This document shows positions 32,658-51,813 of a stretch of 64,000 nucleotides of DNA, piece by piece. The stretch lies in the sequence record ON286975. One strand, given 5' to 3'. Below the pieces are notes generated by a model. It was not told the origin of the DNA. It searched no databases and saw only the letters and a program-made list of their open reading frames with translations. Position numbers and translations under genes: made by a program. The stretch's first letter is position 1; every line of letters begins with the position of its first letter. Origin of the DNA: Escherichia phage I29.

Positions 32658-33056
32658 GTGAAAAATAAACTGTTTAAAGTTACAATGAAAATTCGCGGGG
32701 CTTGGAGCGTAAAGCAAGGGCGTATTCCAGAATTTGAGAAGGACTTCTACGTAGTCTCCACCTCGGAGGAGGCTGCATGCTGGCAGGCTGGCTATGCCTA
32801 TGCAAGAACCTGGTACGAAGGATACCAGACTGGGGGCTATGACGGAGAAATTATCAGCAAGGGTGTAGAAGAAATTAATGTGTTGACAAGTGAAAAAGTT
32901 TTTGTTATAGTGCATCCAGATTCCAGAGTGAAGCATTACTGGAATTCCAGAACAAAAACTTGGACACCGTTTGCAGATTCTGCTACACCACTTTTAAACC
33001 AGAAAGCTCTTGATTCTGTCCCAAGCTATGGGGTTGTTGAAGAAAAGCTAAACTGA
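32658..33056 (+). CDS. hypothetical protein
   Basis: ORF in arm orientation. Confidence 0.4.
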   Translation: MKNKLFKVTMKIRGAWSVKQGRIPEFEKDFYVVSTSEEAACWQAGYAYARTWYEGYQTGGYDGEIISKGVEEINVLTSEKVFVIVHPDSRVKHYWNSRTKTWTPFADSATPLLNQKALDSVPSYGVVEEKLN

Positions 33057-33370: not shown

Positions 33371-33399
33371 TTGACACAACGCTTCAGATTTAGTATCAT
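33371..33399 (+). promoter_or_regulatory. sigma70-like promoter with 5'-UTR hairpin, upstream of the HPF-like gene
   Basis: TTGACA-17-TATCAT, then agaggg-tttggtt-ccctct hairpin and AAAAGGA RBS. Confidence 0.55.
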
Positions 33400-33446
33400 T
33401 GTTTTCAAAGAGGGTTTGGTTCCCTCTTCTTTAAAAGGAACACGTT

Positions 33447-33764
33447 ATGCAAATTGAAATCACTGGCAACGTAGAAATCACTGAAGGTATGGTGTCTTTC
33501 ATTTCCCACAAAATGTCTAAGCTGGAGCGTTTGCACCCCTCTGCCAACTATGCACGTGTGAGTGTAAAAGTTGAAAATGATCACCAGGAAGTTATGGCGT
33601 TCATTTTTGACAATTCTGGAAAAGAAGTTATTGCCAAAGCTAAAGGCAGTGATGCTTACGAGGCAACTGACCGTATGGTAGATGTTGCAGCACGTCAGCT
33701 GGCTAAATGTGGTGGAAAGAAAGGTAAGGGGAAAGGCAAAGTAAAGATTGACTTTGGAGAATGA
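33447..33764 (+). CDS. ribosome hibernation promoting factor / RaiA (YfiA-HPF family) homolog
   Basis: MQIEITGNVEITEGM...KLERL...VSVKVE...GSDAYEATDRMVDVAARQLAK follows E. coli HPF/YfiA. Confidence 0.75.
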   Translation: MQIEITGNVEITEGMVSFISHKMSKLERLHPSANYARVSVKVENDHQEVMAFIFDNSGKEVIAKAKGSDAYEATDRMVDVAARQLAKCGGKKGKGKGKVKIDFGE

Positions 33765-33901
33765 GGTGCTACAATGGGTGTGATTAAGAAATTAGTCCCA
33801 AATGTAGAGATTGCATGCTTTGAAATTATGTTTGCAATCGCAGTTGTAGTTAATGTGTTAGGTTACGGCTATTAATATCAAATAATTGAGGAGACCTCTA
33901 A

Positions 33902-34171
33902 ATGAAAATTAAATTATTCAAAACTGAGCTGGCAGACAAAAACTGTGGACTGGTTGAAGGCATGATTGTCGAAGCACAACCAGTTGACTATATGAAGGTG
34001 GTTCGTGATGCCCTGGGTGAAGGTTTTGATCTGATGGAGCCAGCTCTGCGCGAAGATGTTATCGAGATGGCTAAAAAGCACACACCTGAAGGTTTGGTGG
34101 TGTTTGTTGCACCGGGTAACGGAGAAGAGTTGATTGTAACTCCTGATGTGTATGAGATTGTAGAGGAATAA
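33902..34171 (+). CDS. small acidic protein (MKIKL/MKVKxL-like)
   Basis: MKIKLFKTEL..., C-terminal EIVEE. Confidence 0.45.
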   Translation: MKIKLFKTELADKNCGLVEGMIVEAQPVDYMKVVRDALGEGFDLMEPALREDVIEMAKKHTPEGLVVFVAPGNGEELIVTPDVYEIVEE

Positions 34172-34530: not shown

Positions 34531-34863
34531 ATGAAAGTACGCTTTATTGGTGAAACAATTCCTGTGCATCTCCGGTCGCCTGAAGATTCTGCGGATCTTG
34601 CATCTCAGAAGGCGAGAGGTTATGATAAGAAAGTAATCTCAACCGATGTAGAACTTGAGGCTACTAGTCTACCTGACCCTGCTGCATTCTTCAATCATTA
34701 TGGATACTATTTCAGCAATCTGATGAATATCGGTGAGCTTGTGTTTATTAGTGGTGGAGAGATTGTTAGCAAGCTTGGCGGCGATCCAGATGTCTTTCAT
34801 GAAACCTGTCCTTTTGCATTTGTGGTAGGTTCAGATGTGGAAGTTATTGAGGAGGTGCGGTAA
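34531..34863 (+). CDS. small acidic protein (paralog family, divergent)
   Basis: MKVRFIGE start, FISGGEIVSKLGG, VEVIEE. Confidence 0.45.
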   Translation: MKVRFIGETIPVHLRSPEDSADLASQKARGYDKKVISTDVELEATSLPDPAAFFNHYGYYFSNLMNIGELVFISGGEIVSKLGGDPDVFHETCPFAFVVGSDVEVIEEVR

Positions 34864-35258
34864 TGGTAAGCCTATACCGTGTTGAGTATAGCTCAGATAC
34901 TGTATACAACGTAAGAAGCAAAGATCGCAGCGACAGAGTGCAAGAAATGTATGTTCTTGCCGACAGTCCGTTATCTGCAGCGTTCAAGGCAGGGGCTCTT
35001 GCATCTCGTTGGAAATTTGAAGGCGGATCTTTCTATGAAGAAACCCTTGAAGATTCTGTTGTTATTTCTTCTGTAGAGGTTTCAGACGACTACGAAGGGA
35101 AAAAGTTCGTAATGCGGCACCCACACAGCAACATTGCGTACTACTGGGATGTTCTGAACAACGAGTGGACCCCAGATCTTCAGAAGGCTACTGTGCTAAC
35201 ACCGTTTTTGGCAGATAAGTTCCCACCAGAAGGTAATTTATCCGCACTGTTTCAGTAA
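34863..35258 (+). CDS. hypothetical protein
   Basis: ATGG-coupled ORF. Confidence 0.4.
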   Translation: MVSLYRVEYSSDTVYNVRSKDRSDRVQEMYVLADSPLSAAFKAGALASRWKFEGGSFYEETLEDSVVISSVEVSDDYEGKKFVMRHPHSNIAYYWDVLNNEWTPDLQKATVLTPFLADKFPPEGNLSALFQ

Positions 35259-37670: not shown

Positions 37671-37697
37671 AGAGGGGCTTGGGCCCCTCTTTTTACT
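37671..37697 (+). terminator. intrinsic terminator
   Basis: agaggggc-ttg-ggcccctct then ttttact. Confidence 0.6.
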
Positions 37698-51785: not shown

Positions 51786-51813
51786 AGTTTACTTGAATTT
51801 TGCAGCGTGTCAA
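51786..51813 (-). promoter_or_regulatory. sigma70-like promoter with 5'-UTR hairpin
   Basis: TTGACA-16-TAAACT, hairpin ggcggga...tcccgcc at 51751-51769. Confidence 0.55.

What the first reader, a model, noticed from the sequence alone, without database searches (positions are those of the whole stretch)
33371..33764. Phage-encoded ribosome hibernation factor (HPF/RaiA homolog) with its own strong promoter
The 105-aa product aligns along its length with E. coli HPF/YfiA (MQxxITG.xxEITE...KLE...V.VKVE...G.D.Y.A.D...D..ARQL.K) and ends in a lysine/glycine-rich tail. It is driven by a consensus TTGACA promoter followed by a 5'-UTR hairpin. A hibernation factor made by a lytic phage could shut down or re-tune host ribosomes during takeover.
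Basis: partly seen in the sequence, partly recalled or inferred. Interest (0 to 1): 0.7.

Follow-up and report, generated by a model that had tools for sequence, protein, structure and literature searches.

The report
Phage rV5 ribosome hibernation factor homolog
This is a real, selectively maintained phage copy of a bacterial ribosome hibernation factor (HPF), but it has been annotated for years and was already tested once (it did not stay on salt-washed ribosomes), so it is a known gene whose job in infection is still unsettled.

Summary
Window 33447..33764 (+) encodes a 105-aa protein behind a TTGACA-17-TATCAT promoter and a 7-bp 5'-UTR hairpin. The protein matches Pfam PF02482 (E 1.8e-12) and TIGR00741 above their curated cut-offs. 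Its AlphaFold model superposes on V. cholerae HPF and ribosome-bound E. coli HPF at about 1 A.

The window is a Vequintavirus (rV5-like; closest is phage PDX). The protein is 100% identical to rV5 ORF144 (ABI79209), which deposited records label 'sigma 54 modulation factor', hpf or RaiA. Mizuno et al. 2019 (PMC6375957) listed it as a phage HPF and expressed it in E. coli. They did not find it in 0.5 M NH4Cl-washed 70S/100S ribosomes, 100S levels did not change, and the cells grew. The finding is therefore already known.

New here:
- Strong purifying selection (dN/dS 0.03-0.1).
- Synteny in three diverged phage lineages.
- Retention of contact residues K26, E44, D75, R83 and K87.
- Loss of K80, K89, R33 and the C-terminal His95.
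- A longer basic tail in place of the HPF C-terminus.

The promoter is one of many similar early promoters, and the hairpin is statistically unremarkable. My best reading is a salt-labile, RaiA-like occupant of idle ribosomes rather than a host shut-off factor. That reading is inferred, not shown.

The parts
33371..33399 (+). sigma70-type early promoter (TTGACA, 17-nt spacer, TATCAT); P144 of phage rV5
   Evidence: Matches 11 of 12 positions. Annotated as 'Sigma70-type promoter; P144' in DQ832317. The -35 hexamer is conserved in all Vequintavirus copies and in the L004 lineage. No equivalent promoter is present in the L015/P0047 lineage.
33408..33428 (+). 5'-UTR hairpin, 7-bp stem (AAGAGGG / CCCTCTT) with a 7-nt loop, starting about 9 nt after the -10 hexamer
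   Evidence: Sequence and fold at -9.9 kcal/mol. Across six distinct genus variants 90.5% of cells are paired, with one compensatory pair, but the shuffle control is not exceeded (196/500). Absent in the L004 lineage, where the GAGGG of the 5' arm lies in the Shine-Dalgarno position. UTR z-score 0.13.
33435..33439 (+). Shine-Dalgarno AAGGA, 7 nt upstream of the ATG
   Evidence: Read directly from the sequence. A ribosome_binding_site is annotated at the equivalent place in phage Murica.
33447..33716 (+). [quoted passage not shown]
   Evidence: PF02482 E 1.8e-12, 48.3 bits (cut-off 23.7). TIGR00741 45.9 bits (cut-off 40.9). AlphaFold2 block-mean pLDDT is 88-95 for residues 1-80 and 78 for residues 81-90. 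Foldseek: 4hei rmsd 1.0 A, 6h4n_x rmsd 1.1 A.
33717..33764 (+). C-terminal Lys/Gly-rich tail (residues 91-105, KKGKGKGKVKIDFGE) plus stop codon; predicted disordered
   Evidence: pLDDT below 50 for residues 91-105. There are 16-18 residues after K87, against 8 in E. coli HPF. The tail net charge is +3 to +4 in all three phage lineages although the tail sequences are unrelated. The tail is preserved within the genus at dS up to 0.74. Phage Murica carries a natural truncation at ...GKGKAK.

Best explanation
Shown: the gene encodes a diverged member of the HPF/YfiA (Ribosomal_S30AE) family of ribosome hibernation factors. An ancestor of the rV5-like phages acquired it once, and it has been kept under strong purifying selection at the same position in the early-gene array. 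In this genus it lies directly downstream of a near-consensus host sigma70-type promoter, so it is probably made early in infection by host RNA polymerase.

[quoted passage not shown] This would use the retained contact residues K25, E43, D75, R83 and K87 (phage numbering; E. coli K26, E44, D75, R83, K87) and an overall more basic surface.

It has lost the HPF-specific C-terminus (Lys93/His95, which reach the E-site tRNA and G693) and Arg33. In their place it carries a basic tail about 10 residues longer, which would run further along the mRNA path towards the platform where RMF binds. I therefore expect it to behave more like RaiA/YfiA than like HPF. It would hold or protect vacant 70S monomers and occupy the site that host HPF needs, rather than promote 100S dimers or switch off translation outright. 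Its binding would be weak enough to be displaced on initiation and stripped by high salt.
For: Family and fold:
- PF02482 and TIGR00741 score above their cut-offs.
- The best PDB sequence matches are E. coli HPF.
- The model superposes on free and ribosome-bound HPF at 1.0-1.1 A.

Selection:
- dN/dS is 0.03-0.11 in 9 of 10 informative window-versus-copy comparisons within the genus (0.20 for phage inoa) and 0.077 pooled. Window versus L003 shows 31 synonymous and 6 non-synonymous differences.
- Between lineages pS is about 0.79 (saturated) while pN is 0.12-0.25.
- The gene is syntenic in three lineages at 100%, 64% and 56% identity.

Early expression:
- An 11/12 sigma70 promoter lies upstream, in an array of small + strand ORFs with similar promoters.

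Contact residues (published contacts, mapped):
- K26, E44, D75, R83 and K87 are kept in all three phage lineages.
- Q29 is Arg in all three, which is the family-wide majority residue.
- pI is 8.7-9.7 against 6.5 for E. coli HPF.

RaiA-like rather than HPF-like:
- R33 (E-tRNA contact) and H95 (G693 stack) are absent, and the tail is longer and basic.
- The YfiA tail is reported to progress towards the RMF site, and YfiA antagonises 100S formation.
- No change in 100S was seen on expression.

Not a strong shut-off: cells grew to OD600 = 1 under continuous arabinose induction with a normal 70S profile.
Against: - The only direct test found no peptides of this protein in 70S/100S fractions, although the protein was detected in the crude extract. 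The authors list genuine loss of ribosome binding as one possible reason.
- Two near-universal basic residues of helix alpha2 are replaced in all three phage lineages: K80 (17 of 21 diverse relatives) and K89 (K/R in 18 of 21). T53 and H55, which contact m2G966 and uS9 in Enterobacterales, are also replaced.
- Sequence scores place it nearer HPF (55.8 bits) than RaiA (17.6 bits), so 'RaiA-like' rests only on tail length.
- The tail is predicted disordered and its sequence is not conserved between lineages.
- Phage Murica lacks the last 7 tail residues.
- No expression data for an rV5-like phage were found.
Confidence: 0.4

Rival explanations
1. Host shut-off factor: made early, it plugs the A and P sites of host ribosomes and shuts down or re-tunes translation during takeover.
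For: The canonical activity of the family is to occlude the mRNA and the A- and P-site tRNA positions. The gene has an early sigma70 promoter and is under strong selection.
Against: Continuous induction from pBAD24 allowed growth to OD600 = 1, with a normal 70S profile. Factors of this family bind vacant ribosomes and would block phage mRNAs equally. No ribosome association was detected.
Confidence: 0.12
2. Ribosome protector: by occupying the decoding centre of idle ribosomes, it shields 16S rRNA from host nucleases or from ribosome-targeting defence toxins. This would keep the ribosome pool intact for late phage protein synthesis, particularly in starved or stationary hosts.
For: Family membership and retained core contacts. 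Hibernation factors are described as having protective functions (review abstracts listed). Dormancy and RMF induction occur as an anti-phage outcome in the DRT2 system.
Against: There is no direct evidence. The negative ribosome-association result applies here too. This reading overlaps with the best explanation and differs only in the benefit to the phage.
Confidence: 0.2
3. Repurposed fold: the protein no longer binds ribosomes and now uses its dsRBD-like fold and basic tail for another ligand, such as another RNA, or a nucleotide signal in the manner of the Acb4 sponge family.
For: Absent from purified ribosomes though present in the extract. K80, K89, R33, T53, H55 and H95 are lost. Five new basic residues are conserved in the phage clade: R28, R37, K59, K64 and K66 (alignments). 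The Acb4 sponge is structurally similar to V. cholerae HPF.
Against: K26, E44, D75, R83 and K87 are retained, with 41-45% identity to enterobacterial HPFs. The 0.5 M NH4Cl cushion weakens the negative result. No rV5-like phage or protein is mentioned in the Acb4 study. No oligomer or ligand-pocket evidence exists.
Confidence: 0.15
4. Neutral passenger: a host gene picked up by chance, with no role for the phage.
For: None beyond the lack of a demonstrated function.
Against: Pooled dN/dS within the genus is 0.077, and 0.03-0.11 in nine of ten informative pairs. The gene is kept at the same locus in three lineages whose synonymous sites are saturated. It is present in 118 phage records. No cellular relative is closer than about 45% identity, so this is not a recent capture.
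Confidence: 0.02

Closest known systems
Phage rV5 ORF144 (ABI79209) and its orthologues in Vequintavirus genomes, reported as a phage HPF by Mizuno et al. 2019 (PMC6375957)
   Same: Identical protein (100%). Same promoter P144 and same neighbouring genes. Present in 118 phage records.
   Different: Nothing; the window is another isolate of the same phage group (99.6% to phage PDX).
E. coli / Enterobacterales short HPF (YhbH, 95 aa; PDB 2rql, 4v8h, 6h4n)
   Same: Same fold (rmsd 1.1 A) and 40-45% identity. Same N-terminal MQ..ITG.NVEIT motif. K26, E44, D75, R83 and K87 are retained.
   Different: Scores 55.8 bits against the equivalog cut-off of 125. Lacks R33, T53, H55, H62, K80, K89 and the C-terminal KQH/His95. 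Has a tail about 10 residues longer. pI is 8.7 against 6.5. Lies in a phage early-gene array rather than the rpoN operon. No effect on 100S was reported.
E. coli RaiA/YfiA (protein Y, 113 aa)
   Same: Same fold. Both have a C-terminal tail longer than that of HPF, and in YfiA the tail heads towards the RMF site. YfiA antagonises 100S formation, which fits the absence of a 100S increase with the phage protein.
   Different: Only 17.6 bits against the RaiA equivalog model, cut-off 158. The tail sequences are unrelated. No evidence that the phage protein stabilises 70S.
Cronobacter phage GAP32 HPF (AFC21633, 111 aa) and PHROG 8990
   Same: Another phage-borne S30AE-domain protein. The query matches phrog_8990 weakly (E 1.5e-6).
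   Different: Separate family (the query belongs to phrog_12469, E 7.5e-71, labelled 'unknown function'). It was not recovered by tblastn even at E <= 10. Mizuno et al. place it apart from the E. coli phage proteins in their HPF phylogeny, which suggests an independent acquisition.

Membership tests
HPF/YfiA superfamily (Pfam PF02482 Ribosomal_S30AE; TIGR00741) | Profile match above the curated cut-off over the whole domain | tested here: met
   PF02482: 48.3 bits against 23.7, residues 3-88 matching profile positions 1-83 of 88. TIGR00741: 45.9 bits against 40.9.
HPF/YfiA superfamily (Pfam PF02482 Ribosomal_S30AE; TIGR00741) | [quoted passage not shown] | tested here: met
   The predicted model has elements E2-7, H13-29, E33-43, E46-55, E60-67, H70-90 with mean pLDDT 83. 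The top 36 Foldseek PDB hits are all HPF, RaiA or pY proteins, the best at rmsd 1.0-1.1 A. This is a prediction, not a solved structure.
HPF/YfiA superfamily (Pfam PF02482 Ribosomal_S30AE; TIGR00741) | Conserved ribosome-contacting residues (K26, E44, D75 and the basic face of alpha2: K80, R83, K87, K89, K91) | tested here: inconclusive
   K26, E44, D75, R83 and K87 are kept in all three phage lineages. K80 becomes V/T/I and K89 becomes G/S/N in all three. K91 is kept only in the window lineage (contact lists).
HPF/YfiA superfamily (Pfam PF02482 Ribosomal_S30AE; TIGR00741) | Binds the 30S decoding channel of vacant ribosomes | not testable with these tools
   The published test on the identical protein found no peptides in 70S/100S after a 0.5 M NH4Cl cushion, though peptides were present in the crude extract. 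It is negative but not decisive.
Gammaproteobacterial short HPF (NCBIfam NF007780 equivalog; acts with RMF to form 100S) | Equivalog-level profile score | tested here: not met
   55.8 bits against a cut-off of 125.
Gammaproteobacterial short HPF (NCBIfam NF007780 equivalog; acts with RMF to form 100S) | 95-aa length with the conserved C-terminus ...KHKDKLKQH (Lys93 to E-tRNA, His95 stacking on G693) and Arg33 | tested here: not met
   The protein is 105 aa. Position 33 is Ser (Thr in the other two lineages). There is no terminal His, and the tail is KCGGKKGKGKGKVKIDFGE.
Gammaproteobacterial short HPF (NCBIfam NF007780 equivalog; acts with RMF to form 100S) | Promotes 100S formation together with RMF | not testable with these tools
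   [quoted passage not shown] It was not tested in stationary phase or in a yfiA deletion background.
RaiA/YfiA (NCBIfam NF007654 equivalog) | Equivalog-level profile score | tested here: not met
   17.6 bits against a cut-off of 158.
RaiA/YfiA (NCBIfam NF007654 equivalog) | C-terminal tail extended beyond that of HPF and directed towards the RMF site, blocking 100S formation | tested here: inconclusive
   The tail is longer than in HPF (16-18 residues after K87 against 8) and basic. Its path on the ribosome could not be modelled, and its sequence is unrelated to the RaiA tail.
Long HPF (Gram-positive type, with a C-terminal dimerisation domain) | Second, C-terminal dimerisation domain after a linker (about 180-190 aa in total) | tested here: not met
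   The protein is 105 aa with a single Pfam domain. Matches to long HPFs cover only their N-terminal domain.
Acb4-type nucleotide sponge (considered as a rival) | Sequence or structural membership in the Acb4 family and oligomeric ligand pockets | not tested
   There is only a literature note that Acb4 resembles HPF structurally. No rV5-like phage is mentioned in that study. No Acb4 structure appears among the 50 listed Foldseek PDB matches, whose top 36 are all HPF/RaiA/pY proteins.

The most novel reading that the evidence does not exclude
The phage protein is an anti-hibernation decoy. It would take the HPF/RaiA site on idle ribosomes while its long basic tail excludes RMF, so infected cells cannot form 100S dimers or enter ribosome-level dormancy. 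It would let go readily when phage mRNAs initiate. This would make it a viral counter-measure to dormancy-based phage defence, built from the host's own hibernation factor. Mizuno et al. suggested the competition idea in general terms. The specific tail and RMF mechanism is my inference.
Probability: 0.2. Interest if true: 0.6.

Novelty: already known. Interest (0 to 1): 0.28.

Why it matters
Phage copies of translation-machinery genes show which host processes a virus needs to control. This gene is one of the few hibernation-factor homologs found in cultured E. coli phages. It is clearly under selection, yet the only experiment on it could not place it on ribosomes. If it does bind ribosomes, it would be a natural tool for probing how hibernation is entered and reversed, and it might show that phages interfere with ribosome dormancy. 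As a discovery, however, it adds nothing. The gene, its family assignment and its promoter are already in GenBank and in a 2019 paper.

Tried and rejected
1. 'Recurrent promoter + 5' hairpin cassette'. After I thought the hairpin was a general feature of this phage's early transcripts. rejects that: 6 of 27 promoter-proximal 40-mers fold at or below -6 kcal/mol, against 35% of random 40-mers (Mann-Whitney p = 0.90).

2. Covariation support for the hairpin. One compensatory pair and 90.5% pairing, but the shuffle control is reached in 196 of 500 shuffles. Support is modest only.

3. The word-indexed protein search with the single sequence found only the phage clade. The exhaustive HMMER search found no intermediate between phage and cellular proteins.

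4. The viral-contig scan gave only 2 loci. I took further copies from the GenBank phage collection instead.

5. Literature searches for later functional work found nothing beyond Mizuno et al. 2019. Search terms covered rV5, Vequintavirus, phage HPF and viral hibernation.

6. A second 'sigma 54 modulation factor' two genes downstream, as labelled in some records. Rejected: no Pfam hit and no similarity to the HPF homolog (E = 46).

7. dN/dS between the three lineages could not be computed properly because synonymous sites are saturated. I report only pN and pS.

8. I looked for published confirmation that high-salt washing strips HPF and RaiA. The methods paper I found separates crude from high-salt-washed ribosomes and shows the factors in crude ribosomes, but does not state the loss explicitly. 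That point rests on my own knowledge of the field.

Full report
**What is there.** Window 33447..33764 (+) is an ATG-initiated ORF of 105 codons. Its product is MQIEITGNVEITEGMVSFISHKMSKLERLHPSANYARVSVKVENDHQEVMAFIFDNSGKEVIAKAKGSDAYEATDRMVDVAARQLAKCGGKKGKGKGKVKIDFGE. Upstream lie a promoter, TTGACA (33371-33376), a 17-nt spacer and TATCAT (33394-33399), matching 11 of 12 positions. Next come a 7-bp hairpin, AAGAGGG / CCCTCTT at 33408-33428, and a Shine-Dalgarno AAGGA at 33435-33439.

**Family.**
- The product matches Pfam PF02482 (Ribosomal_S30AE) at E 1.8e-12 and 48.3 bits, against a gathering score of 23.7.
- It matches TIGR00741 (HPF/YfiA family) at 45.9 bits, against 40.9.
- It does not reach the equivalog cut-offs for enterobacterial HPF (55.8 against 125) or RaiA (17.6 against 158).
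- Its best matches among solved structures are E. coli HPF chains (2rql, 4v8h, 6h4n; E about 5e-12, aligned over residues 1-89).
- An AlphaFold2 model was built on an alignment of 38 sequences. [quoted passage not shown]
- The model superposes on V. cholerae HPF at rmsd 1.0 A and on ribosome-bound E. coli HPF (6h4n chain x) at 1.1 A. The top 36 Foldseek hits are all HPF, RaiA or pY proteins.

Membership of the HPF/YfiA superfamily is therefore secure. Membership of either E. coli subfamily is not.

**Where the window comes from, and prior knowledge.** The region is 99.6% identical to Escherichia phage PDX and 97-98.6% identical to rV5 and about 115 other Vequintavirus genomes. The protein is 100% identical to rV5 ORF144 (ABI79209). 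That record annotates it as 'sigma 54 modulation factor' and marks the promoter as 'Sigma70-type promoter; P144'. Other records call it hpf, ribosome hibernation factor or RaiA.

Mizuno et al. 2019 (PMC6375957) list this protein among phage-encoded ribosomal proteins and tested it:
- They expressed it from pBAD24 in E. coli NM522 under continuous 1 mM arabinose, up to OD600 = 1.
- Mass spectrometry detected it in the crude extract, but not in 70S/100S ribosomes purified through a 0.5 M NH4Cl sucrose cushion.
- 100S levels and 70S stability were unchanged.
- They suggest that viral HPF might compete with the cellular factor to prevent ribosome dimers.

I found no later functional study. The finding is therefore already known, and its function is still open.

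**Is it a functional gene?** Yes.
- Within the genus, Nei-Gojobori dN/dS between the window copy and each of the ten differing copies is 0.03-0.11 in nine comparisons and 0.20 in one (phage inoa), 0.077 pooled. Window versus L003 shows 31 synonymous and 6 non-synonymous differences, with dS 0.74 and dN 0.025.
- Two more distant lineages carry the gene at the same place in the same array of small ORFs: P0004 (64% identity) and P0047 (56%).
- Between lineages the synonymous sites are saturated (pS about 0.79) while pN is 0.12-0.25.
- An exhaustive HMMER scan of 1.84 billion representatives found no cellular protein closer than about 45% identity. The capture is therefore old.

**How well is the ribosome-binding surface kept?** I took published contact residues for enterobacterial HPF from two sources: Beckert et al., bioRxiv 10.1101/382572, and bioRxiv 10.1101/2025.10.07.680626. 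I mapped them onto the phage clade.
- Kept in all three phage lineages: K26, E44, D75, R83 and K87. Q29 is Arg, which is the majority residue in a diverse sample of the family.
- Replaced in all three: K80 (to V/T/I; Lys in 17 of 21 diverse relatives), K89 (to G/S/N; K/R in 18 of 21), R33 (to S/T; it contacts E-site tRNA), T53, H55 (to F), H62 (to I/M/L) and the C-terminal His95, which stacks on G693.
- Some of these substitutions are normal elsewhere in the family (F at position 55, a hydrophobic residue at 62). The loss of K80 and K89 is the real departure.
- In compensation the clade is more basic, with pI 8.7-9.7 against 6.5 for E. coli HPF. It has conserved new basic residues: R28, R37, K59, K64 and K66 (alignments).
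- It carries 16-18 residues after K87, against 8 in HPF. The tail net charge is +3 to +4 in each lineage although the tail sequences differ.

**Mechanism.** The shown steps are family, fold, selection, promoter and residue pattern. The rest is inferred. I think the protein still binds the 30S decoding channel of idle ribosomes, but more weakly and with a different C-terminal reach. In HPF the C-terminus follows the mRNA path to the E site. The longer tail of YfiA continues towards the RMF site, and YfiA opposes 100S formation.

A tail about 10 residues longer than that of HPF would be expected to do the same. That fits the lack of any 100S increase and the lack of toxicity in the published experiment. 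The 0.5 M NH4Cl cushion could remove a weakly bound factor. To my knowledge cellular hibernation factors are assayed on crude rather than high-salt-washed ribosomes, and one search shows that separation of preparations.

I put 0.4 on this RaiA-like, reversible-occupant model. The alternatives:
- Ribosome protector: 0.2.
- Fold repurposed for another ligand: 0.15.
- True host shut-off factor: 0.12.
- Neutral passenger: 0.02.

**Promoter and hairpin.**
- The promoter is genuine and conserved in the genus and in the L004 lineage. The L015 lineage lacks it.
- It is one of six 11/12 sites on the + strand within 12 kb and one of many across the window. It is an ordinary early promoter of this phage, not a special feature of this gene.
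- The hairpin persists in the genus through sequence changes. Pairing is 90.5% with one compensatory pair, but it does not beat a shuffle control (196/500).
- The UTR folds no better than shuffled sequence (z = 0.13).
- Transcript starts after strong promoters in this window are not unusually structured.
- In the L004 lineage the hairpin is absent and the GAGGG of its 5' arm sits in the Shine-Dalgarno position.

**Verdict.** The family assignment is supported, and the functional claim is unproven and partly contradicted. The novelty is nil as a discovery. Interest is modest and rests on the still-open question of what a conserved phage hibernation-factor homolog does.

Noticed in passing
window 33902-34171 (+): Several GenBank records (phages nomo, inoa, nom, pangalan, ECP2303) also label this 89-aa ORF, two genes downstream, as 'sigma 54 modulation factor'. 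It has no Pfam hit and no similarity to the HPF homolog (E = 46). The label looks like a propagated annotation error.
   Followed up: yes
window 33447-33764; records OR062525, OR062528, OR062530, MT884008-11: In seven listed phage records the HPF homolog itself is annotated as 'ATP-dependent protease La Type I', which no profile search supports. PHROGs lists its family (phrog_12469) as 'unknown function'.
   Followed up: partly
phage collection hits MG0656xx (e.g. L010 = MG065662): Eighteen records named 'Campylobacter phage' (the one opened, MG065662, is flagged UNVERIFIED and has no annotation) are 97-98% identical to E. coli rV5-like phages across this region. The host attribution looks doubtful.
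   Followed up: no
window 32658-33056 and 34863-35258 (+): The 132-aa and 131-aa ORFs flanking the hpf block are paralogues (28% identity, E 1e-9). Many of the small acidic ORFs between them end in similar ...YE(I/V)VEE motifs, with only weak similarity (E 0.012). This suggests a duplicated module in the early region.
   Followed up: partly
window 33748-33775 (+) and 33774-33875 (+): A second promoter-like site (TTGACT, 16-nt spacer, TACAAT, with an upstream TG) lies inside the 3' end of the hpf gene. It is followed by a 33-aa hydrophobic ORF that is annotated in every related record I opened. Its ATG overlaps the -10 hexamer, so this site cannot serve that ORF in the usual way.
   Followed up: no
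window 33408-33446 versus L004 3985-4000: Compared with the distant L004 phage, the window carries an insertion of about 26 nt. It supplies the 3' arm of the hairpin and a new Shine-Dalgarno. The 5' arm (GAGGG) aligns with what sits in the Shine-Dalgarno position in L004.
   Followed up: partly
window 37671-37690: A perfect palindrome AGAGGGGC-TTGG-GCCCCTCT, related in sequence to the hpf UTR hairpin, is the only other AGAGGG...CCCTCT match in the window. It scores as a terminator-like site on the - strand.
   Followed up: no
L011 (phage Murica), L012 (phage inoa), L009 (typing phage 4), L007/L008/L011: Natural variants of the protein. Murica ends at ...GKGKAK (99 aa, last 7 residues missing). 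inoa lacks six residues of the duplicated EITGNVEIT stretch near the N-terminus (also 99 aa). Typing phage 4 starts with GTG. V18, nomo and Murica have the extra Asn (GNNVEIT) seen in cellular HPFs. Some of these may be sequencing errors.
   Followed up: partly
protein P0122: A 1160-aa protein in the representative library matches residues 35-81 of the phage protein in 8 separate stretches (E 2.9e-9). This would be a protein with many tandem S30AE-like half-domains, which I have not seen described.
   Followed up: no
window - strand promoters at 51813, 51146, 49272, 45443, 43613: These five early promoters are each followed within about 10-15 nt by a clean GC-rich stem-loop and then an A/C-rich leader and Shine-Dalgarno. 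Window-wide, however, promoter-proximal structure is not enriched over random sequence. If the pattern is real, it is confined to this cluster.
   Followed up: partly
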